Positions 10,201 through 60,610 of a stretch of DNA of 64,000 nt are shown piece after piece. The notes under the pieces are model-generated. The model was not told the DNA's origin and did no database searches. It saw only the letters and a list, made by a program, of their open reading frames with translations. The stretch lies in contig CM035357.1 in assembly GCA_020137815.1 (NCBI GenBank), positions 7,564,001 through 7,628,000 of the forward strand. The letters are read 5' to 3'. Every line of letters begins with the position of its first letter. Position 1 is the stretch's first letter. The translations under genes and the position numbers were made by a program. Origin of the DNA: Hormiphora californensis (Eukaryota > Animalia > Ctenophora).

Positions 10201-13200
10201 GGGAGAATCAGAAAACTCCCGTCCTACAAGTGCAGTAACGGGATCCTCCGCGTCCTCTGTGACTGCACGGGGTCATCTTACCCACCTGTTAAAGAGCATA
10301 ATGGGAACCAGTGGCTTTGATGAGAACCTGGTGGATCGATATGTCTCACAGCAACGTAGGTGGAGTGAGACAGAGACAGAGACAGAGATTTAATTACTAA
10401 AACCTGCCCTGCTTACCCTCACCCCCTCCAGGTCCTGTTCGTGTTCGTGAAATGAACTTTGTTGATTTCCTCCTCCAAGACACAGACCAGGACCGGCTGA
10501 GCGAGGCTAGTACCCAGAACTACTCCTCTGAGTGCTCCTCCCTATCTGGTCTTGTATCCCCGACCACTACAGTGGCAGAGACAACTCCTGCAATGGTTAA
10601 CCTACCCCAACTGGCAGCGAGGCCCCAGCCCCAGGCACCCAAACCAGGGGATCAAGATGTAGGGGGTGTGGAGCGGAAAAGAGCGGGGTCCATATCACGT
10701 GATCCACTTCTACTTAGGTCAGTACAGATAGTTCGTGTGTTTCACACGTGTATATACATGACACGTGTTGCAGCTCGTTAGGTGCGAGTTTACTGAACAT
10801 CGGTAGTTAATTGTTGACACAGTCAATCAAAATTACAATTGATTAATTTCATCTTTACCCCTCAGGAAGGGTTCGAAGGAGTCGCTAAAAGATATCCCCA
10901 TAGTGAATATCTCCTCTCCATTCTCCTCGCCATCTACAGAGAACCCACGGCTAACCTCTGGGAGGTCCTCCAAGGACAGCGCTTACGGCTCCATGGCAAC
11001 ACTACGGGGGTCTGCTGAGGAGGAACAACCCCCAAAACACATAACAGCCATTGTGGTACAGCAGGATGGGGCTGTGGTGGTGAACAGTAGAGATGAGGGG
11101 GAGGGGGAGGAGGAGGGGGTTACCCCAAGAGAGGAGGAGGAGGAGGAGGAGGAAGGGCAGACAATCACACCAACACCACCACACGAGGAGGATGCATCAC
11201 CTGCAGTAGTTGAGGAGCTGGTAGAGCAGCCCCCTCCAGAGAAACCAATATTAGGTGTTAACAATATCGGGGTGCTAAAGGGATACAAAGTAAAGGCGTT
11301 GCAGAAACCACGGCCTGTTGCCACATCCCAGAATCAGCTTAAAACTGGTGGCAAAGTTGGGAAAGGGAAAAAGGGAGCACTCAAATTCAACCAAAAGTTG
11401 CCCCAGGTATGTGACCCGTGCTCCTTTCTATATGATTCTGTGCATATGATTCTGTGCATATGATTCAATATGATTATGTGTAATATGTGTATGTGATTGA
11501 CACACTCCAACCAATTATGTGTGTATTTGTCCCTGTTATAGATCAAGGAGGAGAAGATAAGAAGAGATCATTCGGCACTGTCTCGACTTAAAAGGGCTGA
11601 TAAGAGACATTTAAAAAGCGCAAAAAGTGGCTCTTCTGAGTCATCATCAGGTGTTACCAATACATCGGTGAGTACCACTGAACCATGGCTACCAATGGCA
11701 CGAGTTTTCAATTCTGCCGGAAATGCCAATTTTCGCTTTCTGCCGATCTGAATCATGTCTCATCCTAAATCCTGTGTATAATACCGATCAATACGGGAAA
11801 AGCGAAACCCTAGTTTTGATCGTTGTTTTGAAACTTGTAACGCTAAGTTAGAATCTTTGGAAAGTATTTGTAGGGTATCCCAATCGTGCATAAAACCCCA
11901 TCCAATTAGTAGATTCAATGTGTATCCAATTAGCGCTCTCTGTAATATGTCTTCTCATAGATATTGCTTCTCCCGTGATGACGTGATCAAAACTAAACCT
12001 CCTAATTTCAGGATCCCTCTACTGTCCGACCCTCTACCACACTCACCAAAACACGACCAATTGTTGGGCTGCAGCAGCGACCTAAAACTGTTGGACCAGG
12101 ACCTACCGACAAACAAACACACAAATCAGGAGAGAATAGTACTGTGACACCTGAAGTTATCAATACGGAACTTAAGGACATAACCAGAAAATACAATCCC
12201 AGTTTACTAAAGAAGCTGGCTGTTGTAAAGGATTTGGATACCTTGGTAAGTTGCATAAGTAGTGCATTATAAGTGCAAGTGAATAATTGTACTTCATTAC
12301 TTTTATTGTCTCGGTAGATCGCGCGACACAGTGACTCAATTGGGAATGCAAAGTTTGGTGCCCCCCTCTCCTCTCCAATTCATTCCCCAGACTATCCTTT
12401 ACCCTGTAGTACAGGGTAATATAAAGGAAAGTCTTGCTTTATTATAACCAGGGTACAGGGCCTGTACCCTGGTTATAATAAAGCAATACTTTCCCTTAAC
12501 AGTTTAAAAAGAGACAAATATCCCTTTTCCTACGAATATTTCTAAACCGCACCAATACGTAATTTAAGTTGCTTTCATTGGCTTTGAGCAGCGTCTAGAC
12601 AGTCTCCTCGTCCCAGGTCTAAGACGCCCCACTCCACCTCTCTCCCCTCCCAGGTTCAAGACGCCCCACTCCACCTCTCTCCCCTCCCAGGTTCAAGACG
12701 CCCCACTCCACCTCTCTCCCCTCCCAGGTTCAAGACGCCCCACTCCACCTCTCCCCCTCCCCCCAGGTTCAAGACGCCCCACTCCACCTCTCTCCCCTCC
12801 CAGGTTCAAGACGCCCCACTCCACCTCTCTGCGGTGGACGAGTCCAGTCAAGAGCGGAGTCCGGCTACCCCCCACGTGACCCCTCCAACACCCCAACTGG
12901 CACAACCTGCTGCACACCATCATGGTCCAAACCACTTTGCAGATACCAGATCTGTATTGAGTGAGCGGAGATCAGTCCTTACCAGCTTCACAGGTACATT
13001 GAATATGATAATTAATTATAATTAGGTAAATCAATTACAACTATCAATTAATTAACGGGTAACTTAACACCAGGAACAACTAAGATTGAGAGTATAATGG
13101 GTGACACCACACAATGGTTAAAGGGCCGGTTACTGGGTACTGGGGCTACTGGGAAGGTTTGGCATGGTGTTACCCAGGAGAAGATTGATGTAGCGGTCAA

Positions 13201-28916: not shown

Positions 28917-29671
28917 GAGGGTCCTAGAGACTAATTTTAATTAGTTTGATATGTTGGAGATGATGTATACTGTATAGATTTCTATGATAGGCGTTTTGAT
29001 ACTCTCCAGAAATTGAAAGACAAACCAAAAGAGACACGATTATAGCAGCGAAAAGATATGAGTAGAGTGTATAATACTTTAGGCTAGAGTCTAGCTTAGG
29101 AGTCCGTCAGTCCGAGTACTCACATCTACTCCGTGTGTGTTATTTGTTAATGTTCGCGTTGGTCCTTCATCGGCACTTTGTTCTGTCAGGCAGTGCCAGA
29201 TCCCATTTTGATTCTCGATATACATTATACTCAGAATCAGATTGGGTTGGCCGCCAGGCTGAGACAGGTTCTGGTTATGGTTCAACAGGTCAATTTATTA
29301 CCAATTCCAATATAATAACTGAGTCGTGTTTCTCAAATAAATTGTTAATTGCCGGTGGTCAGAGCACATGTCCTAATAACAAGACCCTTTCCAGCGCTGA
29401 TTTCTCGCGCGCAATTATTTTTTGCGCTTGATAATATTTAGCGCCGCGCGCGAAAATCTGAATTAAAAAAAAAGATTTTTTTACGCGTTACAAAAATCGC
29501 GCAGTTGTCAATTTTGATTTTCGGCTTCGCTCGTTTCTCCTCAGAAATAGCCCTGTTTTTAGCCATAATAAAAGCGGTTATACACAGACTAACGTTCTAT
29601 TTATATAATTAAACTATTATGGGTCGTGTGTATATTTTCTTCGAGCTGGACCAAACCCCGAAAGTGATTTT

Positions 29672-30961
29672 TTGACCTCTCGACCCCCCACTGAGATTGA
29701 ATTGACATTACCGGCCAAAAATAGGCAAACCTTGAGTCACCGGATCATCAAGAAGATAGAAAGCCTGTTCCCGGCTCGGTGTACTGACTGTCCCGCCGTA
29801 TACCACCCCGATTTTGAAGCGACACCTATCTTCACATGCTGGTCATGTTACCGTCACTCCCATGACTGTGAAGTTATCAGTGAGCTCGGAGAGGCCATCT
29901 CAAAAATTGGAGGAAGCAATGGCTTCAAATGGCTTTGTCTGGAATGTTCAGAAAAAACAAGTCTTTCTCTCAGAAAGTCACTGACCCTCTACGAAATAGG
30001 ACCAGACCCCCCAGAAGAGCATAAAGATGAAAAGAATGGTCCAGCTGGAGAAGATTCACAATACGACACCATCGACCTCTCCCAGATTGATGCCTCTCAA
30101 CAAGTGGAGAAAGAAGGGGAACCAAAACAAGTGGAGAAAAAAGAGGAACCCCCCTTTGAAAGGATCTCCAAGCAATGTAGCTTCTTCCGCAAAGGAAATT
30201 GTCGACACGGTCCAGACGGGACCAAGGAAGTAGACGGACAGACCTGTCGATATGAACACAAAGCTCCAGCAATCACCCCTACCCAACCACCAGCCGGAGC
30301 CGTGGCCCAGCCTACCGAAACTGACTGTAGGGTGTTTGTTCAGTATGGACGATGTGAGCACGGAATCAATGGCAAAATCAAAAGAGGTGGAAAGGTATGC
30401 CCAGGAAGACATCCTAAAATTTGCAGAAAGCTTAGGAAGGGAGCGTATGGGAAAAATGGATGCAGAAAAGGATCACAATGCGAGTTCCTTCACCCAAAAC
30501 TTTGCAGAGGATCTGAATCTAAAGAGAAGGTCTGCCCAAACCCCACCACATGTAAGTTCTTTCACACAGAAGGAACTCGGTTCGGAACACGACAAGTGGC
30601 ACCTACTACTGGAAGGGAAACAACTACACAGAGGAGCGAGGACAATAGCCCCCGCCCCCATACCCACCCCCATCCCTATACCGATGCACTGAACCACACC
30701 CCGGAGGGACCGGATTCCTCCGAAACATCGGTTTTTCTGAAATCCCTGGTAAAGGAAATGAAGGAAGGGTTCCTGTATCAGGGTCAACAGATTCAACAGC
30801 TGATGAAAGCCCTACTCCAAAGGGACACAAGCTCTCCGGTCAAACCCTTCACCATGGATCACTCAGGGATTATGCCAGACTACATGATACCAACAGAGAG
30901 AATAGGAGAGCTACAGACACTCCATCCTCTGACTCACCGATCTCAAAGGTCCTTCTACTAA
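29672..30961 (+). CDS. LINE ORF1 (PHD-like Cys/His finger plus several CCCH zinc fingers), 5' incomplete
   Basis: CTDC...CWSC.RHSHDC...WLCLEC; CSFFRKGNCRHG...CRYEH; CRKLRKG...CRKGSQCEFLHP; C...C.....CKFFH. No ATG at the ORF start. Confidence 0.8.
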   Translation: MTSRPPTEIELTLPAKNRQTLSHRIIKKIESLFPARCTDCPAVYHPDFEATPIFTCWSCYRHSHDCEVISELGEAISKIGGSNGFKWLCLECSEKTSLSLRKSLTLYEIGPDPPEEHKDEKNGPAGEDSQYDTIDLSQIDASQQVEKEGEPKQVEKKEEPPFERISKQCSFFRKGNCRHGPDGTKEVDGQTCRYEHKAPAITPTQPPAGAVAQPTETDCRVFVQYGRCEHGINGKIKRGGKVCPGRHPKICRKLRKGAYGKNGCRKGSQCEFLHPKLCRGSESKEKVCPNPTTCKFFHTEGTRFGTRQVAPTTGRETTTQRSEDNSPRPHTHPHPYTDALNHTPEGPDSSETSVFLKSLVKEMKEGFLYQGQQIQQLMKALLQRDTSSPVKPFTMDHSGIMPDYMIPTERIGELQTLHPLTHRSQRSFY

Positions 30962-33900
30962 ACTGTAGGTCGATCTCACCGGCAGCTGGTGGGGAAACTA
31001 AATGGAAACTCCCCTACATCCAGGAAACACTGATGTCCCCGAGCTCAAACGAACCACCTGTTTTAGCGGTGGGTATCACCGAAACGTGGCTAAAAAGTTA
31101 CATTTCAGATGCCCAAATATCGATCCCCGGGTATGTTACTCTCAGAGCAGATAGAGAATTGAAAGTCGGAGGAGGTTGCTTGTTATACATCAACAAAGAC
31201 GTGCCGATTACAAAACAATCTTCATGGAGTGACCGCCAGACAAGTCTTGTAACCGCTTTCTCCGAACAGAAAAACCTCTTCTTTGCCTGTATGTACCGAC
31301 CACCAGACACAGAGGAAAAATCGTATGCAGAATCTCTAACGAAACTCCAAGCAGAGATCAACTCGGTGATCGAGGAAAATGATGGGCGAACACCAGAGAT
31401 TGTTATCATCGGAGACTTCAATCTCCCAAACATAGATTGGGAAACAATGACATTTCCATCACAAGGAGGAAGAGAGGCTGGCCCTTACCACCAAACTCTT
31501 GAATTCGTCAACGAGAATTTCATTACACAACTTGTCACAACCCCAACAAGAGGAACGAATATCCTGGATCTGGTGTTCACAAACACCCCTGAATACTTTG
31601 CAAATGTGACAACTGCAGATAGCAAAATATCTGACCATCGTGTAGTGGAATGTACCATGGCATACAACCCATTGGACAGTGTGGTTAACGCTAAAACTGA
31701 AGATGACCCCTTCAGGAAAGTGAAGATACATAATGTTGACTACCTCCCAATGAAAACAAAACTGTGCGAAATAAACTGGGATGGACTACTCCAGATCTGC
31801 AAAAATGGTGATGTTTATGACCTTGAGCAGTTCAAGACCTACGTAACCCAAATCGTACGTGAAATTGCAGAAGAAACCCTCCCTGGTAAGGCCGAACACG
31901 GAAAAGAAAAACGGCATATACAGAGGATATCTGAATCTTTTAAACGGAAGTCAAGAAAAATAAAGAAGAAGCTAGAAGGAGATCTTGACCCACCCAGTAA
32001 GGAAGCTCTTTATGAGGAACTGGACCTTCTAACTGTCAGAAGGAAGGAGAAGATCCTTGAAAACCTAGACCAAGAAGAGATAAACGCAGTCGGAACGATA
32101 AAAATCAACCCTCGTTTCTTCTACACCTATGCGAAAAAGAAGTCTAAAACAGCTTCAACAATCGCACCACTGAGAAGACAGGATGGAAGCCTGACCACCG
32201 ACAGTGCTGAGAAAGCACAGCTACTACAAAACCAATATGTAGGAGTGTTCAGCAACCCTGCTGATGTAGACGCTGAGAAGAGCCTGACCTGGATTAAGTC
32301 GGAACCAAATCTGGTCACTGAAAACTTTGACTTTACGCCAGAGGATATCCAGTCCGCCCTAAAGGAAATTGATCCGTATGGAGCGGCACCGGACGGTGAC
32401 ATCCCGGCTAGGATTCTTTATGAGTGCAGAGCACAGCTTTGCTACCCTTTTTGGCTCCTCTGGAACAAATGAATGGAAGAGGAAGTCATCCCACCGTCTA
32501 TGAAGAAACAACAAGTAGTACCCATCTTCAAAAAAGGAGATAGAACCAAAGCTGCGAATTACCGCCCCGTCTCCCTCACGTCAAATGTCATCAAAACATT
32601 CGAACGTGTCATGAAGAAACACCTTGTCCAACACTTCGAGGAGAATAACCTATTTCCCGAATCTCAGCATGGGTTCCGGAAGCAACGGAGCTGTCTCACC
32701 CAGTTGATTGAACACGTGGATACAATCCTAAAAGAACTAAGGGATGGAAACGAAGTCGACGTCATATATGTCGACTATGCAAAAGCATTTGATAAGGTCG
32801 ACATCAACGTTCTACTTGCAAAATTAGAACGTTACGGTATCCGCGGAAAAGTTCTCAGTTGGATCAGATGCTTCCTGACCGACAGATACCAAACTGTCGT
32901 GGTGGATGGAAAACTCTCATCACTGGAGAAAGTGCTAAGTGGAGTTCCTCAAGGAACCGTACTCGGGCCAATACTCTTCATCATATATGTTGCGGACCTA
33001 AACTCAGCCGTTGTACACTCAACAACCAAAACTCTTGCCGACGACACTAAACTCATAAAGGGAATTGAAAGGGAAGTGTCACATGACCAACTCCAAGAGG
33101 ACCTGACAAACGTGGGAATTTGGTCGAAGGCCAACAACATGAGTCTGAACGAAGATAAATTTGAGGTTTTGCAATACTCTCTCAACAGAACTCAATTACT
33201 TAAACAGTTACCATTCACCCAAGACCTCCAAACATACTATACTCCAGAGGGACTCAAGATTGAACCAAAACATTGTGTCCGTGACTTAGGGGTCCAACTG
33301 TCAGATGATCTATCCTGGGAACACCAAATAGGAAAAATGACATCCGACGCCCGAAAGATAAGTGCATGGGTATTGAGGGCCTTCAAAACAAGGGACGAAA
33401 AAACTATGACTATCCTGTACAAAAGTCTTGTCCGCAGTAAACTGGAATATTGCTGTCCACTATGGGATTCGCCAAAGATCTCTGACATCCAGGACGTTGA
33501 AGCAATCCAGCGGAAGTTCACCAAACGGATCAAGGGAATGACCGAATTAAACTACTGGGAGCGTTTGAAAAAGTTGAATATTACTTCCCTTCAACGCCGC
33601 CGAGAACGTTACAGCATCATAATGATATGGAAGATGGCAAACGGCAACGCACCCAACAACATCGGCATCCGCTTTTATAACAACAACCGTCTCGGGAAAA
33701 AAGCGGAGGTCCCAACATGTCCCACAAACACACAGAAGTCAGTCGCGACGAAGTACCACAACTCGTTTATCTGTAGAGCGACTCGACTATGGAACACACT
33801 ACCCAGGGAAGTGAACTTAGCGGAAGACCTACCGTCGTTCAAGGTACTTCTAGGGGAATGGATGAAGAGATTTCCGGATCGCCCACCGGTTCTCGGATAC

Positions 33901-34033
33901 CCAAAACAAAACAACAATTCAATCTTGGACTGGATACGGATCGTTTCCAGGGAGGGGGAGGCTCTGTGAGGAACTGACACCTGTGTAGTTTGTACACGAA
34001 GAAGATTACAAGATTACAAGATTACAAGATTAC
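29690..34033 (+). mobile_element. Nearly full-length CR1/L2-group non-LTR retrotransposon
   Basis: Zinc-finger ORF1, APE+RT ORF2, short 3' UTR ending in about 4 tandem AAGATTAC repeats (34002-34033). The 5' end appears truncated; no TSD recognised. Confidence 0.93.
30649..33969 (+). CDS. LINE ORF2 (AP endonuclease + reverse transcriptase) with one in-frame TGA at 32470-32472
   Basis: LLNCRSI, ITETWL, GGG, YRPP, GDFN, LDL, SDH; then NYRPVSL, QHGF, DYAKAFDKV, GVPQG, ADD, RDLGV, LQRRRER. Frame is open from 30649; first ATG is at 31033. Confidence 0.9.
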
Positions 34034-34308: not shown

Positions 34309-35286
34309 TTAGGTAGTTGATCTCACAGTGTTTTGTCTAACTGAGAAGAACGTGCGTGCTTCCCTTGTTAGCAAAAGATATACCAGTGGATCGAATATGG
34401 ACGAGGACAAAGGAAGACAAAACTGTAGAAAAAACTTAACTAGGAAACTCACAGAGTTCTGATCGATTTCATTTCTTGACAACTTATTTATACGATCCTC
34501 GATGTTTAGCAAGTGAATGACAGTGTATTAACTCATGATGAGATTAACCAAACTCCAAGTATTGAGTAGAAAGATCTTTGCCGTCCCTCGGAGGTTTCTT
34601 CTGTTGGAATTTTCAGTGATATTCGGGGCTTTGTGCAGTTGAATTAGGAAGATTAGAGTGAACAGTGTGGCGATCTGTCCTGCAACTTGGAAACAAAGAG
34701 CAGGAACGATGGTAGTAATGTCTGGAAGAACTTTTATAATGTAACTATCCGACCAGCTGGTGATAGGTATAACAAGCCGGTAGCCACAAATAAACAAACC
34801 GGAATCAGGCCATCGGGCTGACAGAAAAGTTCCTTGAAATGCTACTGGAAAAATAAAACCAGTGAAAAGAAACGCCTTAACTATTCTTTTGGATATTTGC
34901 CGCAATGGGAATTTGATTTGAAAATATCTGACGATCATGAAGAGGCCTGTAATCATCATGGCCCCATTATGTAGCCCCACACCTATCGTTGCGTAACCTG
35001 CCCTGGGAATGAAGTTGTTTGTTAGATTGACAATGCCTGTGTTATTACAGATAGGATCCTCCGTTATCCACAGACCCTCGAGGGCCGGGTAAACCAGGTA
35101 GGGGCACGCTACCAGATCAATAGTGTATAGGATGAGGTAGAGATATCGGGATATAGAGGGAGGTTTGTAGAAGTTGTGTCGGACAACCAGAGAGTTCAGG
35201 GGTATTGATATTAGTGGTTGGATTAGGAAGAAACAAAACAGAACAAAGTCTGGGTGTGAAAATCCTCCTTCACTGAACTTTGCCAT
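34309..35286 (-). pseudogene. Intronless rhodopsin-like 7TM GPCR with one in-frame TAA (34528-34530)
   Basis: ORFs 34528-35286 and 34309-34512 are in the same frame. TM1 PLN, TM2 L..ID, TM3 IVRYFQI (DRY-like), TM7 IFDPLVY (NPxxY-like). Confidence 0.72.
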
Positions 35287-36128: not shown

Positions 36129-36712
36129 ATAGGGTGTCACATTTCCGTGCAAATTTGCATTAGATATAGTTAGATAGTTAGATAGATAGAGAGAGCAGCT
36201 TTGAATTATTGTTATAGTTAGAGAATATTCTGGACAAGGTTGAAGAATAATAACAAGGTTGAAGGAGCATATTTAAAAGAAAGGCAAAACATGGTCCGTT
36301 ATCGATAATTGTCGATAATTGTTTTGTAGGCAGATGAGTTAACTCTGCGTTGTTATGGTAACATGTCCTCGTGCCACACCTGTAATCATATGGAGAGTAC
36401 ACACCTCATTGCTCCACATGCTTGATGCTAGTTCCCAACGCAGAAACACGCAGCTGTCTCACCGGGTACGGTGATGGAATTGTGTTGGATAATTATAGTG
36501 CTAATAATACTAGGAGAGAATAACAGTCAAGATTAGATACCCATCAGTATCAGCCAGCCCGGTCTGTGGTTTTCCAAAGGTCGGAATTCACACTATATGT
36601 AGTTTCTTTAAAAATGAAATAAGCTCAATTCACTGCACTCTGAACTACAAAACACAACACCACGTTAATCTGCTCGGGACACTTTACAATTGTTTCTCTC
36701 CCTCATCATCAC

Positions 36713-37304
36713 CATCCTGCTGCTCGATGTTACCTCTATCAGACATCATCCTGCTGCTCGATGTTACCTCTATCAGACATCATCCTGCTGCTCGATGTTA
36801 CCTCTATCAGACATCATCATGCTGCTCAATGTTACCTCTATCAGACATCATCCTGCTGCTCGATGTTACCTCTATCAGACATCATCCTGCTGCTCGATGT
36901 TACTTACCTCTATCAGACATCATCCTGCTGCTCGATGTTACCTCTAACAGACATCATCCTGCTGCTCAATGTTACCTCTATCAGACATCATCATGCTGCT
37001 CAATGTTACCTCTATCAGACATCATCCTGCTGCTCGATGTTACCTCTATCTGCAGACATCATCCTGCTGCTCGATGTTACTTACCTCTATCAGACATCAT
37101 CCTGCTGCTCGATGTTACCTCTAACAGACATCATCCTGCTGCTCGATGTTACCTCTATCAGACATCATCCTGCTGCTCGATGTTACCTCTATCAGACATC
37201 ATCCTGCTGCTCGATGTTACCTCTATCAGACATCATCCTGCTGCTCGATGTTACCTCTATCAGACATCATCCTGCTGCTCGATGTTACCTCTATCTGCAG
37301 ACAT
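36713..37304. repeat. 34-bp tandem array (about 17 copies) overlapping the 3' end of the MFS gene
   Basis: Unit CATCATCCTGCTGCTCGATGTTACCTCTATCAGA with recurring variants (TTACTTACC, TCTGCAGAC, CTAACAG). Confidence 0.97.
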
Positions 37305-38543
37305 GTAAAATGCCAGGATGACAGTCACAGCAAGGGCTACAAAGACGGGGGTTCCCAGGGCAAATACCTGTCTCTCAGGTAGATAGTCAGTGAACCATGC
37401 CGCTAGGAGGGGATCTATAATGGCTCCTACATTATAGGACACACATGCTACGTTCATTGTTATTGACATGGCTAGTTCAGTAGTGGTGATAGTAGTTAGA
37501 CTCTGGGCGGATATTGTGATGGAGTTAAGCTGGATTAGGGCGCTGAACACGAGGAGAGTGTTAAAGGAGATGACGGAGATTGGGAAACCCTTCTTGAGGG
37601 GGATGGAGGGACCAAGGAATACCAGTGATACAGCTGCACCAATCAGACCCACTACTAAACCAGGTAGGGTGAGCTTCTCTCCCTTACTGTTAATCACCCC
37701 CGCTAGGAATGCAGCCGCGCTGTAAACCACACTGCCCAGTCCTAGAACAAGTGATGTTCTATCGAGGGTAACTCCATACTCCTCACTGTAGTAATAGGAT
37801 AACATCCCATACACGAACACCATGCATCCTCCAATAGTCATGTTGACAGACCACCCAAATACAAGGAGGGGACTGGTAAAATGCAGCCTGTACACTTCCC
37901 TTGTTGTTGTCTTCTTTACCCTCTCCTCGCCATTACTGTCCCACAGGAGCTGTACTGCAAATCCTATCACGAAGAAGGCCAGTCCTGCTAGGAACATGGT
38001 GTTGGTAAATCCAATGTGTAGTGCTATAATAGCACCTGTGTAAGCACCTATTGCCTGTCCTGTACTGTAGCATACCTCCCATGTAGAGGCTGCTTTAGCA
38101 ACATTCCCCGCCAGAACCTCGGTAATGATCACCACCACATCATTCTTGAGTAGGAAGAGGGAGCATCCCGCCAGTAGTCGTGACGTCACAGCGCACCAGA
38201 TGAACAGTTTGGGGTACATCTCTCCGGGGTAGAAGAGGCAGAACGCTGCAGACCCGGTACAGGCTATAACTCGCTGGGCAAAGTACCGTTTATCTAACTG
38301 GGTTATCAGCGGCTGAATTATTAGTGCAATCAATGATGAAAAGGGCCATGCTACTAGGATTATTGTCGCTTGGAAGTCAGACAGGCCTTTGGAAATAGAC
38401 TCAGGAACCAGAATTGCCATGGGGGAGGTCTGGACAATGCCAAGGAGAACTGAGAGAAGAGAGAGGATGAACCATTTTGTTTTGGAGATGTGATTCTCTC
38501 CAACCAGAGCATCCCTTTCAGTTACAGGTGCTGTAGTGGTCAT
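37260..38543 (-). CDS. MFS transporter (about 12 TM; possibly SLC18B1-like); the original C-terminus may lie at 36684-36733
   Basis: 427-aa ORF with about 12 hydrophobic segments, SRLLAG (MFS motif-B-like) and GQAIGAYTGA (motif-C-like); acceptor TTTTCAG 1 nt before the ATG. Confidence 0.8.
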   Translation of the reverse strand: MTTTAPVTERDALVGENHISKTKWFILSLLSVLLGIVQTSPMAILVPESISKGLSDFQATIILVAWPFSSLIALIIQPLITQLDKRYFAQRVIACTGSAAFCLFYPGEMYPKLFIWCAVTSRLLAGCSLFLLKNDVVVIITEVLAGNVAKAASTWEVCYSTGQAIGAYTGAIIALHIGFTNTMFLAGLAFFVIGFAVQLLWDSNGEERVKKTTTREVYRLHFTSPLLVFGWSVNMTIGGCMVFVYGMLSYYYSEEYGVTLDRTSLVLGLGSVVYSAAAFLAGVINSKGEKLTLPGLVVGLIGAAVSLVFLGPSIPLKKGFPISVISFNTLLVFSALIQLNSITISAQSLTTITTTELAMSITMNVACVSYNVGAIIDPLLAAWFTDYLPERQVFALGTPVFVALAVTVILAFYMSADRGNIEQQDDV

Positions 38544-39670
38544 TCTGAAAAGGGGGAAGGGAGAGAATAGTAACTGTTGAAGTTTAAAATTAACAAGTGC
38601 TATTCTGTTCTGGATCCCGCGACAAAGATTAATATCAATAGTGCTATATCAGTCTACAAAATTTGCAAGTTGCAACAGTACGATTTTTATCAAGTGTAGT
38701 GTGGTGTACAAACTACAGGGTAGATCAATTAGACAATGAAGATCAGGGTTACAATTGGCACACAAAGGATCTTTCGATACTACTACGAGGTGAGAACATT
38801 TTCATTATTTGAACGGTCTAGTGGCTCGCCTCATGGCATTAATGAGCCTGAGAATTAGTCCACCATCATCTGTAAGAATAGTAATACTTGAATTGCTTAA
38901 CACTGTTTCCGTGAGCTATAAACCAAGTATGAACAATTCAAGATAATACTTATCCAAACAATTGATTTAAATCACGTTGCATTGTATCACGTGTAATAGT
39001 TAAATGAACGCAGGTGCTGGACACCTCGCTATTGTTCTCGTTCAGAGTGTCACTCATTGAGTGATGGGTGTTAGGTTCTGCAAAGTTAGGACAGCCACAA
39101 TATCAGTACAACTTAGGAAACTTACAACAATGCTATCAAGGTGACAGTCTCAATCTAATAAAGTATTGCATACTCATAAGAGAGGTAATAAGGAAAGAAA
39201 TGCACCCCAATTCTTTAATCATCCATTTTATTATTCTCTCCCTCTTATCCCCCCTTTCTCTCACTCTCTTTCTATCTCCCTCTCTCTCTCTCTCTTTCTC
39301 ACTCTCTCTCTCTCTCTCTCTCTCTTTCTATATCCCTCCCCTATTTCCCTCTCTTTCCCTGCCCCATTTTCTCATTAAATTCCCAGGCGACAACTTCCTG
39401 AAAGAGATGCCCATAGTAACTAGTAATTGTAACTGCGTTTAGCCGAGTGCAGCAACTAGTTACTAGTTTTAACGTCTGTTAAACTAAGTAATTTATCGAA
39501 CTAGCCAATGAAAAGTACCCTGATACAGTTCCCTACTAAATCAAATATTTAATATTTAGCATTAACCCACCTTGCGCTTTTAGCTCTAGCAGTTAGCCCC
39601 ATTCGTTCACTGACACTGCTCTCTGTTAAATTCTGTTACTAACCTACCCCTCCTTTCTAGCTCTAGTACC

Positions 39671-42600
39671 ATGGGATCGGAAAAGAGAAAGAAGGAGAAG
39701 AAATCAGACTCTAAAAAGAAGAAGCACAAGCATGATAGGTCAGATCGAGAGGAGAGGAAAAGTAAACGGAGACACAGGGACAGTTATTCAGGGGGAGAGG
39801 GGGGAGGTGAGGGGTCGTCTAACTTGGAAAAAGCCTCCCTAAGTGTATCTGAAACTAATGCAGTGAGAGCTAAACTGGGTCTAAAGCCCCTACAGATGGA
39901 TGAGCCAGAACCCTCAAAACCAGCTGAAGAGGACAAGAATGTCATCTCTCTGAGTGTGGAGGAAACCAATAAACTCAGAGAAAAGTTGGGACTCAAACCT
40001 CTTGATGTGGGAGATAAGCCAGGTGGTGATGTACATGTTCCTGCTAAAAACATGAGGCAGATTGTAGAAACCCAGAAACTAGCAGAGAAAATGAAGGTCC
40101 TGAAGGAGAAGAGAAGGATCAAGGAGCAGATGAGCCGGGTCAAATCTCTGGGATCTTCTTCATCAGACCTCACCGACACATTGGCGTGGATCCAGAGGAA
40201 CAGGGATCTAGCAACTAAAAAGGCAGCAGCAGAGGCCCAAAACAAAATGTTGGACAGTATGGATGATGAGTTTGGAGTTGGGGATCTGGTATCGAGGGAG
40301 GAGATCAGGGGGAAGAATTACACTCAACAAGATCTAAAGGATCTCACTGTGTCTCATGGTGTTGATAGTTTTAAAGAGGGGACTGTTACCATTCTAACAC
40401 TACAGGATAGGGGAGTACTAGATGAGGAGGGAGATGATGGCGAGGTGTTAGAGAATGTTAACATTGCATGATAATGAGAGAGTTGCAAAGAGTAATGAGA
40501 ACAAGAAAAGTAAACCTGGGTATAACCCTTATGAGGATGAATTCGATGAAGATGGTAACCCGCGGACTGGAAAATCAATGCTATCCAAGTATGATGAAGT
40601 GATAGAGGGAGAGAGGAAGAAGACGTTTAAACTTGTCTGATGTCCATAGTGGAGAGGTGATCCAACGGAAAATGCAGGAGGGATTAAAACCGAAAAACAT
40701 CAGTCTTGCTATGGATAACTTCGTGAAAAACAGCACAAGAGTATTACACTCATGATGAGGTTGCGAGCTTTAAGAAACCAAGAAAGAGGAAGAGGAAGAT
40801 AAGGAAAGCGAAGGATTTGGAGGCTGATGAGTTAGTTGTGAATGGGTGCGGGTGGGGAGGGTAAGGACCATGGGTCTAGGGACTCCAGGAGGCGTGCTAG
40901 AGAGGAAGGAGATGTGGTGAAGGGAGGAGAGAGGCGGATGGGGCTGGAAACATGGATATAGATATTGGTGAGTTACTGACAGCTTTGTTATTTGACCCAC
41001 TATTACTCATTTTTTGACTGTTTCTTTTGTGTTAAAAACATGAAACAAGAAGTTCATCTAACACCCCACATTATTTATTTACCCCTTTCTCCAACCCCCC
41101 CCCCCCTCTCCAACCCCTCTCTCCAATCCCTCTCCAACACCTCTCTCCAACCCCTCTCTCTAACCCCTCTCTCTCTAACACCCCTCTCTCCAACCCCTCT
41201 CCCGACCCCCTGCAGATGACGAACAGCCAGAACCTCTAAAGAAGTCGAATGGTAAGAAGGGTGTTGTGAGTGAGAAGGAATTATATTCAGTGCCCCTTGA
41301 AGAAGAAGATAATGAACTTGAACAAGCTCTAGCAAGGAGTCGAAGGTGGGTAGTTATCTAGGATGTGGTAGTTTGTATACATCCTCTGTCCTCTGTAGAA
41401 TGTTGTGTGACCTCCCTTTTGGTACAACATCAGATAAAATACTTTCGATATGGATCTCTCTGTTGTTTCTGTGTCTCATTCCCCTGATTCAATCCTTCTC
41501 CCCCTCCTCCAGATCTAAGCTCATGATAGCACATAAGACAGCAGTTATGGACCAAATCTCGCGTTTGCCATCTCAAAAAGAGGAAGAAGAGAGTCTTCCA
41601 GGTGCCGCAAAGTCAAGTTAGTGTTTTATGCTGCCAACTGAGATCCCAGAACTCTTGATAACTCAACCTCAACCTCAACCTCAGCCCCAACCCCAACCTC
41701 AACCTCAACCTCAACCTCAACCTCACATTTAGCCAGGTTTGTTGGTGCTGGACACTACCGCAGAGTTTGCTAAGGGTATTGGTCCAGACTAAGGAGGACG
41801 ATGAGGAGGGGGAAGGATATGGAGGAGGACATGCCACAACCTGAATCACCTGACGCCATGGAAGAGACACCTCAGGGAGATTGGAAAAACTGTAGATTTT
41901 GTTACCTGCTACCTTTGGAGAGGTAGGTTTTGGATGGAATGGGTTGTATTGATCATTACTTTAATTAATTTTGTCTAAAAAGTAGGTCGAGACAGTCGGA
42001 GTAAAGGAATATTTGGCACACAATTTGTTTTTCGGTCACACTATTGCATGTTATTTGACGGAGGGCGCGAAACTTACCGTTCTCCTGATCTCGCGCAATG
42101 TTCAAACCGCGCGCGTAGCTCCCAAAAGCGCTGACAAGCGCCAAAAGTTTGACTCCAAATTCAACATCTTCTTTTCTCAGTTCCAAGATTACGACCCAAA
42201 ACGTGCTGAGCAACAGGAAGTGATTGAAGCAGAACCCTCTCTCCAGCGGGGCCTCATGGGGGCTCTTCAAGTAGCCCAAAGAAAGGGGTTCCTAGAGGTT
42301 GAAAAAGGGGTCAACTCTCGAGATGTCAAGGAAGCTATCAAGGCTACCGGCTCGATTAAAGCCCGGTTTTACCAAGTAGATAATGACAGAGATGATAAGG
42401 ACCAGGGTGGTTCGGGAGGGAGGAGAGGGAGAGATAGGAGGGATGATGATCGACCCATGGGAGGTTCCTACTCCTCTTTCTCAGAAAAGAAGGGATACAA
42501 CCCTGATGTTAGGATAGTCTACACTGACAACCTAGGACGGGAATTAGACTCAAAAGAAGCATTCCGTCAGCTGTCGCACAAGTTCCACGGCAAGGGAAGT

Positions 42601-42900
42601 GGTAAGATGAAGACTGAGAAGAGGTTGAAGAAGGCTCTGGAACAGATGGCACTTAAGAAGATGGACAGTGAGGACACTCCCCTTGGTTCAGCTGCTCTAC
42701 TGAGGGAGAAACAGAAGGATGCTAATGCTGCTTATGTGGTATTGAGTGGGGGTAACAGGTTACCTCAATTGGATCAAAACGCTAAACTAGTCAAAGAGAT
42801 AGGGGACAATATAGACAGATATTGGGATGATAACAATGAAAAGAGGAAACAGAGAAGAGATAGGACGATATATCATGTTGTATTGACAGACAAGTTGTGA
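39671..42900 (+). CDS. SART1: U4/U6.U5 tri-snRNP protein SART1/Snu66 (several frameshifts in 40460-41900)
   Basis: HIND motifs SLSVxETNxxRxKLGLKPL, ILTLQDRGVL, LENVNI, YNPYEDE, MLSKYDE, EYYTHDEVASFKKP, DHGSR; last exon from 42181 with EAFRQLSHKFHGKGSGKMKTEKR and DTPLG. Confidence 0.92.
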
Positions 42901-43194
42901 CTATATACCATGTGTGTGCTGGTGTGTTGAATCCGCATACTATTTTATGATTGAAATACTTCTTCTTTCAGCTACATATGAATTATGAATTGTGTATCAA
43001 TCCATGCTACCCACTACCGTGCAGAGTGAAACCCTTCTGTACAAATCAATATCCCCCGGCCCTAAAGTCTAAACTACCCCAACCATCCAACCCCCTTTCT
43101 CTCTCTATTTAGGGCACCACACTCGCCCACCTACACCCTTCAACCCCACACTAATCTCCTTTTCCCTCTCTATTTAGCCCCTCGATGTAACAGG

Positions 43195-44837
43195 ATGTCT
43201 ATATTGGTTGTAGGGGCTGGTTTCACAGGGAGTGTCCTGTGTAGAAGACTCCGATCCATCCCTGGCCTAACTGTAACTGTCTGGGAGAAGTCCCGAGGTG
43301 CAGGGGGACGACAATCAACAAAACGTGACGGTGATCATTCGTGTGATATAGGAGCACAATACCTAACATACCGACACTCAGACACAGCATTTAGACCTTA
43401 TTTGGATGAACTTAGAGTCACGAACGTTGTGCAGACCCTATCAAAGGTAACAGGAGATTGTAAAAACTTGAAAAAAAGTTCAGTGTTGGACAATATTGTG
43501 TTATTATCCAGACATTTCATACCCCGGCCCCTCCTATTCTAGGGTCAGATAGTGAATGCCCCTTATTCTAGGGTCAGATAGTGAATGCCCCTTATTCTAG
43601 GGTCAGATAGTGAATGCCCCTTATTCTAGGGTCAGATAGTGAATGCCCCTTATTCTAGGATCAGATAGTGAATGCCCCTCCACCCCTAGGATCAGATAGT
43701 GAATGCCCCTGCTCGATATGACGGGGAGGATATCACACACTATGTCGCCAGGAACGGTATGAACTCAACATCTAAATATTTCATGTCCGGTACCCATGTC
43801 CATTATAGCAACAAGGTGGCACGTCTACTGAAGAAAGATAACAACCAGGTAATGACTCCCCCATAGTTAATCAGTTACGGGTTGGTGACCCCTTGGTGAC
43901 AAAAGGTTTCTTACAGTGGTGCTCCGTCATATCGGCCACCCGCATCTAGACGGAGCACTACTGTTAACAAACTCAGATTTTGATGAACAATCTCAACTGA
44001 TTTGTTTAGATTGAGGTGACGAACACTGACGGACGAACAGCGACGTTTGACGCGGTAGTATTCACCATTCCAGCACCCCAACTCCTTGAAATCGACATGG
44101 AGATCCCAAATGAGGTGAGACTGAGAGAGTTTAGGTGAAATGGTACTTTTATTCCAGACTTGAGACCAGATTAGTTTGCTAATACCTTAACTACTAGATC
44201 TGACTTACTAAAATGACGCCCTTCCATTCCCATTAGGAGCGGGACAAGATATCCGGTATTACATTTACCCCCCGGTTTACTCTGATGCTTGTATACGAGG
44301 ACACCCCGCCATTTGATTGGACTGTAAAGTACCACGATAACAGCATAGTGAGGTGCATGGTGTGGGACAATGTCAAGAGAAACAAGGGTGAGTGGTTGTG
44401 TGTAGTTATTCTTTCAGTTCGTTAAAATTAGATAAGATCGAGAACAAAACAAGATCGACAATACATGGCAATTTCTTCTTCCCTCAGGAACAGAACCGAC
44501 ACTGCTAGTGCACTGCCAAGCGCTCTATGCTGTGAAGAACATCGACATCAAAACAAAAGAGGAAGCAGGAAAGGAGCTTCTAGCGGCTGTACATGAGATA
44601 TACCCTGAACTTCCAGAACCGATCAAAGTGATCCCTCATTTCTGGAGGTACGGACAGGTTTATAAACCCTACCCTGGTACACCCGGGTTTATTGAGCTGG
44701 GTAGTGATCCCCTTGTGTTAGCGGGGGGAGATAGCTTCTTCGCTATGTCCAATCTACAGGCTTGTGCACGGGGTGCGGAGTTGTTGGAGGGACGGATTAG
44801 GAAGAGATTTGGTGTGCCCGTGGAGAGTGACAAATGA
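43195..44837 (+). CDS. RNLS: Renalase-like FAD-dependent oxidoreductase
   Basis: Exons 43195-43446, 43690-43848, 44010-44114, 44237-44387, 44488-44837. Motifs VGAGFTG, WEKSRGAGGRQST, DIGAQY, FDAVVFTIPAPQ, DNVKR, WRYGQV, LAGGDSF..SN. Confidence 0.9.
43528..43710 (+). repeat. 29-31-bp tandem array (6 copies) spanning the renalase exon-2 acceptor
   Basis: Unit G(G/A)TCAGATAGTGAATGCCCCTTATTCTAG; TAG|G junctions with exon-side starts at 43543, 43572, 43601, 43630, 43659, 43690. Confidence 0.95.
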
Positions 44838-60510: not shown

Positions 60511-60610
60511 NNNNNNNNNNNNNNNNNNNNNNNNNNNNNNNNNNNNNNNNNNNNNNNNNNNNNNNNNNNNNNNNNNNNNNNNNNNNNNNNNNNNNNNNNN
60601 NNNNNNNNNN
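60511..60610. other. Assembly gap (100 N)
   Basis: Run of n. Confidence 1.

What the first reader, a model, noticed from the sequence alone, without database searches (positions are those of the whole stretch)
36684..37304. Exonic tandem expansion strands the original MFS C-terminus, with AG|GT in every unit: a possible nascent intron
Seen: on the minus strand the ORF reads ...MSADRGNIEQQD and hits an array-derived stop (DV*, 37260). Past the last unit the unique sequence reads GNIEQQDGDDEGEKQL* (36734-36684), which looks like the ancestral ending. Each 34-bp unit holds AG|GTAAC, and two variant units (~36902, ~37079) carry a full AG|GTAAGT. Splicing from the first GT (37288) to the last AG (36734), 555 nt, would restore the ancestral frame exactly. 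Established: this is the geometry of the tandem-duplication (AGGT proto-splice-site) model of intron gain. Inference: splicing is uncertain because the acceptor is GAG with no pyrimidine tract; the alternative is a tolerated 7-aa shortening of the C-terminus.
Basis: partly seen in the sequence, partly recalled or inferred. Interest (0 to 1): 0.8.

Follow-up and report, generated by a model that had tools for sequence, protein, structure and literature searches.

The report
Comb-jelly repeat trims a transporter tail
In a comb jelly, a 34-base piece at the end of a transporter gene is copied about 17 times and creates an early stop that likely just trims seven dispensable amino acids, so this is probably an ordinary tolerated repeat and not a newborn intron, although no RNA data could test splicing.

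Summary
A 34-bp minisatellite (17 AG|GT sites) puts a stop into a 427-aa MFS transporter gene of a Pleurobrachia-type comb jelly. It strands the old tail, which the P. bachei orthologue confirms. The array is real DNA: contigs from two samples hold it, including on a second haplotype that also stops early.

The intron reading is unlikely. In-register removal of any tandem duplication restores the old frame, and 145 of 1205 34-mers of this gene would yield AGGT when duplicated. The needed acceptor is GAG with 7/17 pyrimidines and 6 AGs just upstream; 3 of 3 resolved SART1 acceptors are CAG with 11-17/17. The second haplotype lacks AG|GT in unit 1. The two GTAAGT units are likely one event, copied. 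The tail varies between haplotypes, and 15 of 15 distant homologues end shorter than the trimmed form.

No RNA could be laid, so splicing is untested. Best reading: a tolerated 7-aa truncation by an unspliced 3' repeat (about 0.8). The scan has already noted AGGT-duplication introns in other genomes and frequent local repeats in this one.

The parts
37260..38543 (-). Uninterrupted MFS transporter ORF, 427 aa, ending QQDDV* at the array-derived stop
   Evidence: Pfam MFS_1 E 3.4e-18, 66.1 bits; 93% identical and colinear with P. bachei sb|3464832
36713..37295 (-). 34-bp minisatellite, 16.8 copies, made of the codons for M-S-D-R-G-N-I-E-Q-Q-D plus one base; units 5-9 and 10-14 look like a higher-order duplication
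   Evidence: held by public contigs of two samples
37260..37262 (-). Premature TGA created by the frameshift at the unit 1/unit 2 junction
   Evidence: a second haplotype also stops here, reading QQDGV* (inferred)
36684..36733 (-). Stranded ancestral tail GNIEQQDGDDEGEKQL*, likely 3' UTR now
   Evidence: orthologue tail; variable between haplotypes
36734..37288 (-). Proposed 555-nt intron (GTAACA...GATAGAG); splicing untested, acceptor poor
37079..37084 (-). GTAAGT donor-like variant in unit 7, 176 nt past the stop
36902..36907 (-). GTAAGT donor-like variant in unit 12, 353 nt past the stop; same place in the duplicated 5-unit block
36640..36660 (-). T-rich acceptor-like sites (TAG at 36645, CAG at 36640) about 90 nt past the array; better acceptors than the GAG
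   Evidence: not shown to be used
38545..38565 (-). Strong acceptor-like site (17/17 pyrimidines, CAG) just before the ATG; possibly a 5' UTR intron or trans-splice acceptor (inferred)

Best explanation
A 34-base piece of the last codons of an MFS transporter gene was duplicated and expanded to about 17 copies; because 34 is not a multiple of three the reading frame stops just after the first copy, and the transcript likely keeps the array unspliced as 3' untranslated sequence, so the protein would lose a net seven residues of a likely dispensable acidic tail. Shown: the array, the stop, the ancestral tail, the array on more than one haplotype, and the poor acceptor. Inferred: origin by slippage or unequal exchange at a short ATG/TG microhomology, growth by block duplication (units 5-9 and 10-14), lack of splicing, and near neutrality of the trimmed protein. 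AG|GT in each unit is then a chance by-product of the codons AGA GGT.
For: Acceptor: GAG, 7 pyrimidines in 17 (mean of all 9059 AG sites in the window 7.4), 6 AGs in the 40 nt upstream. The 3 resolved SART1 introns have CAG, 11, 14 and 17 of 17, and 0-1 AGs. GAG is the least preferred acceptor in mammalian work (PMC2018619, PMC2699507, passages). Only 1 of 16 in-register acceptors restores the tail, and the others have the same or nearly the same upstream context. A second haplotype in runs X1, X3 (sample S1) and X5 (sample S2) runs from the coding sequence through a variant unit 1 without AG|GT into a second unit and stops. No array-free junction appears among the 6 of 6 records laid for X3 or the 7 of 7 for X5. 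The tail differs among haplotypes: one is two codons shorter with another end (X5 record 9), one is net 5 nt shorter and so out of frame (X6 record 26). The last hydrophobic helix ends near residue 414, before the change, and 15 of 15 aligned distant homologues have shorter tails (14-27 residues past the anchor) than the trimmed form (28). Minisatellites are common here: 4 arrays with period of 25 or more and 5 or more copies in 64 kb, 2 of them holding AGGT.
Against: No transcript was seen, so retention of the array is inferred. The ancestral tail is still intact and in frame in the window haplotype and in frame in one other. Each unit holds a branch-point-like CTGAT (-43 and -9 from the proposed AG). 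The local acceptor pattern rests on only 3 introns; a fourth was not resolved. The distant homologues are predicted proteins from unnamed contigs and some may be cut short. The out-of-frame tail rests on one contig, which cannot be assigned to an array-bearing or array-free allele. Only 8 of 71 X6 records were shown, and contigs can hide alleles: the window's own 5' junction is not shown joined to the coding sequence in X3.
Confidence: 0.8

Rival explanations
1. Nascent intron by AGGT tandem duplication (Rogers model): the spliceosome joins the first GT (37288) to the last AG (36734) in part of the transcripts and restores the 434-aa protein.
For: The geometry is exact and the 555-nt length is ample. 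AG|GT occurs in 17 of 17 window units. A CTGAT branch-like motif lies at -43. Precedents exist: ATP2A1/2 minigenes spliced at 6-16% (PMC3265369, parts 1-2 of 4), and fission-yeast 24-bp arrays (seen only as cited in PMC4974935).
Against: The acceptor is GAG without a pyrimidine tract, with TAG, CAG and CAG upstream; ATP2A had 7 of 8 pyrimidines at -12 to -5. Fifteen near-identical upstream acceptors and 15 inner donors, two of them stronger, would have to be skipped. The second haplotype has AC|GT at the first donor. One haplotype's tail is out of frame. Little selection is needed to rescue 7 residues.
Confidence: 0.07
2. The array does supply a donor, but not a frame-restoring intron. A GTAAGT unit (37084 or 36907), or the first GT, would be joined to the T-rich AG at 36645 or 36640. 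This gives a 3' UTR intron that could lower mRNA by nonsense-mediated decay, or a different short tail.
For: Two full AG|GTAAGT donors lie 176 and 353 nt past the stop. The downstream sites have 10 pyrimidines in 16, 9-10 of them T, and a TTAAC at -24. The 50-55 nt decay rule is recalled, not tested.
Against: The GTAA duplications were not among the indels listed for public contigs. One haplotype's 3' flank diverges from the window right after the tail (X5 record 9). No RNA evidence.
Confidence: 0.1
3. The array is an assembly artefact, or a 'mirage' copy of a real pre-existing splice donor at which the gene already had an intron.
For: The window has at least four single-base frameshifts in SART1 relative to its 98%-identical orthologue, so the assembly is likely imperfect. 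Mirage-type repeats are reported as common in this genome (unchecked notes).
Against: Independent contigs hold the unit, its variants (the CAG insertion, the CAT variant) and unit-to-unit junctions, at single-contig depths about 16 and 25 times haplotype depth in X3 and X1, against 9.2 expected from one window-type array (depth is a rough guide only). The orthologue peptide is colinear across the site, which fits an exon.
Confidence: 0.03

Closest known systems
Intron gain by tandem duplication of an AGGT-containing exon segment (Rogers 1989 model; ATP2A1, PMC3265369 parts 1-2 of 4 read; review PMC3443670 passages; potato RdRp and cited fission-yeast 24-bp arrays, PMC4974935 part 1 of 5)
   Same: Exonic segment with AGGT duplicated head to tail; in-register excision would leave the ancestral peptide unchanged; multi-copy array as in the cited fission-yeast cases.
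   Different: Acceptor is GAG with no pyrimidine tract; no transcript shows excision; the duplication lies 16 codons from the stop, so failure to splice costs only 7 residues; AG|GT is missing from unit 1 of another haplotype.
Internal tandem repeats (about 30-bp minisatellites) that modify gene structure in human paralogues (PMC2812944, outline and passages)
   Same: Minisatellite expansion inside a coding exon that changes the protein end, with variant units and allelic differences; the paper warns that apparent introns without good splice sites are often structural polymorphism or RT-PCR artefacts.
   Different: Here the unit is not a multiple of three and makes a stop; the species is a ctenophore; no segmental-duplication context was tested.
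Amphioxus 'mirage' minisatellites (PMC3087553, passages)
   Same: Locally amplified short units carrying AG/GT signals, variable between haplotypes, reported not to disturb normal splicing.
   Different: Mirages span an existing exon-intron border; this unit is wholly exonic by comparison with the orthologue.

Membership tests
AGGT tandem-duplication intron | Intron sequence is a tandem copy of flanking exon | tested here: met
   orthologue tail
AGGT tandem-duplication intron | AG|GT in the duplicated segment at both ends | tested here: met
   17 of 17 sites in the window; but absent at unit 1 of a second haplotype, and expected for 145 of 1205 34-mers of this gene
AGGT tandem-duplication intron | In-register excision restores the ancestral peptide | tested here: met
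   true of any tandem duplication, so no evidence of splicing; would not hold for the net -5 tail contig
AGGT tandem-duplication intron | Usable acceptor: YAG with a pyrimidine tract and few upstream AGs | tested here: not met
   GAG, 7/17 pyrimidines, 6 upstream AGs; 3 of 3 resolved SART1 acceptors CAG, 11-17/17, 0-1 AGs
AGGT tandem-duplication intron | Branch point suitably placed | tested here: inconclusive
   CTGAT at -43 and -9; from the -43 site several AGs come before the needed one
AGGT tandem-duplication intron | Transcripts lack the segment while the same animal's DNA has it | not testable with these tools
   no RNA holder listed; the one guessed RNA run laid 0 records
Mirage minisatellite | Unit spans a pre-existing exon-intron boundary | tested here: not met
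   orthologue peptide continues colinearly through the site; the orthologue's gene structure was not seen
Exonic minisatellite (VNTR) | Head-to-tail units of 10-100 bp with variant repeats | tested here: met
Exonic minisatellite (VNTR) | Unit types differ between alleles | tested here: met
   variant unit 1 and variant last units in public contigs
Exonic minisatellite (VNTR) | Copy number differs between alleles | tested here: inconclusive
   short-read contigs collapse the array; only rough depth ratios
Major Facilitator Superfamily (host gene) | Pfam MFS_1 above the curated cut-off | tested here: met
   66.1 bits against 33.4

The most novel reading that the evidence does not exclude
A young ctenophore intron caught at birth: a 17-copy exonic minisatellite is cut out of part of the transcripts from its first GT to its last AG through a weak GAG acceptor, so one animal makes both tails, while haplotypes that keep, lose or strengthen the donor segregate in the species. 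It would be a population-level test of whether a nearly neutral duplication can be turned into an intron.
Probability: 0.07. Interest if true: 0.55.

Novelty: new member of a known kind. Interest (0 to 1): 0.2.

Why it matters
On the favoured reading it matters little. It is one more minisatellite in a repeat-prone genome that happens to clip a dispensable tail. It is useful mainly as a negative example: AGGT duplication geometry alone is not an intron. If long RNA reads did show excision, it would be a segregating natural case of intron birth by the Rogers model with an unusually poor acceptor. That mechanism already has experimental and natural support, so the gain would be a population-genetic test case, not a new mechanism. 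Searches for ctenophore cases listed no paper on this topic; most subscription papers are not in the library.

Tried and rejected
No whole genome is held for this window, so a genome-wide splice-site model and a count of exonic arrays were not possible. Sequencing runs: no RNA holder listed; the guessed RNA run X8 laid 0 records, which says nothing on expression or splicing. The reads were laid on the two flanks with only the edge units, so no joint across the whole array could be listed; 'joints: none' is no evidence. My first reading, that X3 and X5 hold an array-free allele, was wrong. One search places the same contig ends on 36727-36775 with 3 differences and no gaps, and this placement differs from the array-free one at 13 of 49 positions, so the contig enters a second unit. 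The exact 427-aa protein is not in the protein collection. The metagenome scan found no relative: 276 pattern matches, 0 confirmed. A homologue search for the gene near the 37-bp array found none, so it added no introns. The fourth SART1 intron could not be resolved. Paper searches: one search gave 0 papers, only the potato paper, one unrelated preprint. Earlier-findings look-ups near the locus and by sequence were empty. No fold or complex prediction was run: a 7-residue tail change would not be resolved by it.

Full report
What is there. The minus strand carries an uninterrupted 427-aa ORF (38543-37260) that matches Pfam MFS_1 above its cut-off. Its only close relative in the protein search is a 435-aa Pleurobrachia bachei model, 93% identical. 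The neighbouring SART1 is 98% identical to the same species' protein over the piece searched. The window is thus from that comb jelly or a close relative. At the gene's 3' end TRF finds a 34-bp array of 16.8 copies (36713-37295). My split gives 17 AGAGGTAA sites and 16 full units, 10 of them identical to the consensus. The unit is the coding sequence for M-S-D-R-G-N-I-E-Q-Q-D plus one base, so translation shifts frame at the first junction and stops (QQDDV*). Behind the last unit lies GNIEQQDGDDEGEKQL*. The orthologue ends NIEQQDDDDDEKQS, so the stranded piece is the ancestral tail.

Is the array real? Yes. Six runs from two samples in two studies hold part of the stretch; sample S1 may be the source of the window and is not independent of it. 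I laid contigs on the two flanks. They hold the unit, the CAG-insertion and CAT variants, and unit-to-unit junctions. In X3 the core contig has depth 683 against about 43 for haplotype-specific contigs; in X1 496 against about 20. One window-type array would give a mean 31-mer multiplicity of 9.2, so these ratios roughly fit two arrays; depth is only a rough guide. The exact unit count and the two GTAA duplications are not verified. The window is probably imperfectly polished: SART1 shows at least four single-base frameshifts against its orthologue.

Other haplotypes. One contig type in X1, X3 and X5 leaves the coding sequence, lacks the CAG, and carries a variant first unit. I first read it as array-free. 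One search places its last 49 letters on 36727-36775 with 3 differences and no gaps; all three differences lie in the 30 letters printed, and the array-free placement differs at 13 of 49 positions. It therefore enters a second unit and reads MSDRRNIEQQDGV*. So a second haplotype, seen in both studies, also stops early, and its first unit has AC|GT instead of AG|GT. All 6 records laid for X3 and all 7 for X5 were shown and none is array-free; only 8 of 71 were shown for X6, and contigs can hide alleles. The tail varies too. X5 record 9 has a last unit followed by QQDDGGEKQLY* and a different flank (read from the 30 printed letters). X6 record 26 covers 81 window bases with 76, a net loss of 5 that puts EKQL out of frame; this is one contig and it cannot be assigned to an array or array-free allele.

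Does the geometry argue for an intron? Little. Removing a whole number of units between equivalent positions restores the pre-duplication sequence for any tandem duplication, so the exact frame is not evidence. AGGT is also common: 145 of 1205 34-mers of this coding sequence would carry it when duplicated, and 2 of 4 long-period arrays in the window do. The two GTAAGT units (7 and 12) sit at the same place in a repeated 5-unit pattern (units 5-9 and 10-14), so they are likely one slippage event copied once. Both lie past the stop and cannot restore the protein.

Could it be spliced? The one useful acceptor (36734) is GAG with 7 pyrimidines in positions -20 to -4, below the mean of 7.4 for all 9059 AG sites in the window, and with 6 AGs in the 40 nt upstream. 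The three SART1 introns that I could fix against the orthologue (of four gaps tried) end in CAG with 14, 17 and 11 pyrimidines and 0, 0 and 1 upstream AG. Mammalian work ranks CAG > TAG > AAG > GAG and treats GAG as rarely used, though not never (PMC2018619, PMC2699507, passages); its transfer to ctenophores is an inference. In the best-proven case, ATP2A, the duplicated segment had a pyrimidine tract and branch point and still spliced at only about 6-16% (PMC3265369, parts 1-2 of 4). Here the spliceosome would have to pass 15 near-identical acceptors; each of those gives a 420-428-aa short form. In favour of splicing: a CTGAT branch-like motif lies at -43 and -9, the length is ample, and multi-copy AGGT arrays have become introns in fission yeasts (seen only as cited in PMC4974935, part 1 of 5). 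If a donor in the array is used at all, the T-rich sites at 36645 and 36640 look like better partners. No RNA could be laid, so none of this is tested.

Is the short form tolerable? Probably. The last hydrophobic helix ends near residue 414, and the change starts at residue 427. The profile search gave 30 proteins. I aligned the orthologue and 15 of the other 29, leaving out 14 (mostly fragments whose match does not reach the last helix). All 15 end 14-27 residues after the anchor proline, against 28 for the trimmed form and 36 for the orthologue. These are unnamed predicted proteins, 27-41% identical in the alignment, and some may be incomplete. Together with the early stop on two haplotypes and the variable tail, this fits a tail under little constraint.

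Comparison with known kinds. The locus has the shape of the Rogers AGGT model (PMC3443670, passages) but fails its acceptor requirement and lacks transcript support, so I do not file it there. It fits exonic minisatellites that alter gene structure (PMC2812944, outline and passages). It is not a mirage (PMC3087553, passages), since the unit is exonic, though unchecked notes report many mirages in this genome, which points to a high background of local duplication. The scan has noted AGGT-duplication introns in other genomes, some described with transcript support (unchecked). Searches for a ctenophore case listed none; supplements were not consulted.

Verdict. A real exonic minisatellite that most likely shortens a transporter by seven residues without splicing (0.8). 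A 3' UTR intron or other splice to downstream sites (0.1), a frame-restoring nascent intron (0.07) and an artefact or mirage (0.03) are the rivals. New member of a known kind; interest 0.2.

Noticed in passing
window 12603-12830 (+): 37-bp array of 6 copies in which each unit has a pyrimidine-rich run ending CCAG|GT. Its acceptor-like site is far better than the one in this finding; it may be a mirage of a real acceptor or a better duplication-intron candidate. The host gene found no homologue.
   Followed up: partly
window 39671-42800 (+): SART1 gene, 98% identical to P. bachei in its first part, with at least four single-base frameshifts between 40468 and 40842, likely assembly errors; three introns fixed at 40968-41215, 41346-41512 and 41617-41736, two holding short tandem repeats.
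   Followed up: partly
window 38543-39671: The MFS gene and SART1 are divergently oriented with start codons about 1.1 kb apart; a strong acceptor-like site lies two bases before the MFS ATG.
   Followed up: no
window 37917-37936: A strongly diverged haplotype block (9 substitutions and 4 gap letters over 124 nt in X3 record 4; a 6-nt insertion in X5/X6) falls in the loop where the window protein and the P. bachei orthologue also differ.
   Followed up: no
window 29609-33969 (+): LINE-like retroelement: three long ORFs in different frames, the last with Pfam RVT_1.
   Followed up: no
window 34528-35286 (-): 252-aa hydrophobic ORF that looks GPCR-like by eye; no Pfam match at E 0.1.
   Followed up: no
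window 43535-43710 (+): 29-bp array of 6 copies right at the end of an ORF (43066-43542) with a GxGxxG dinucleotide-binding motif recognised by eye.
   Followed up: no
window 60511-60610: A 100-N scaffold gap.
   Followed up: no
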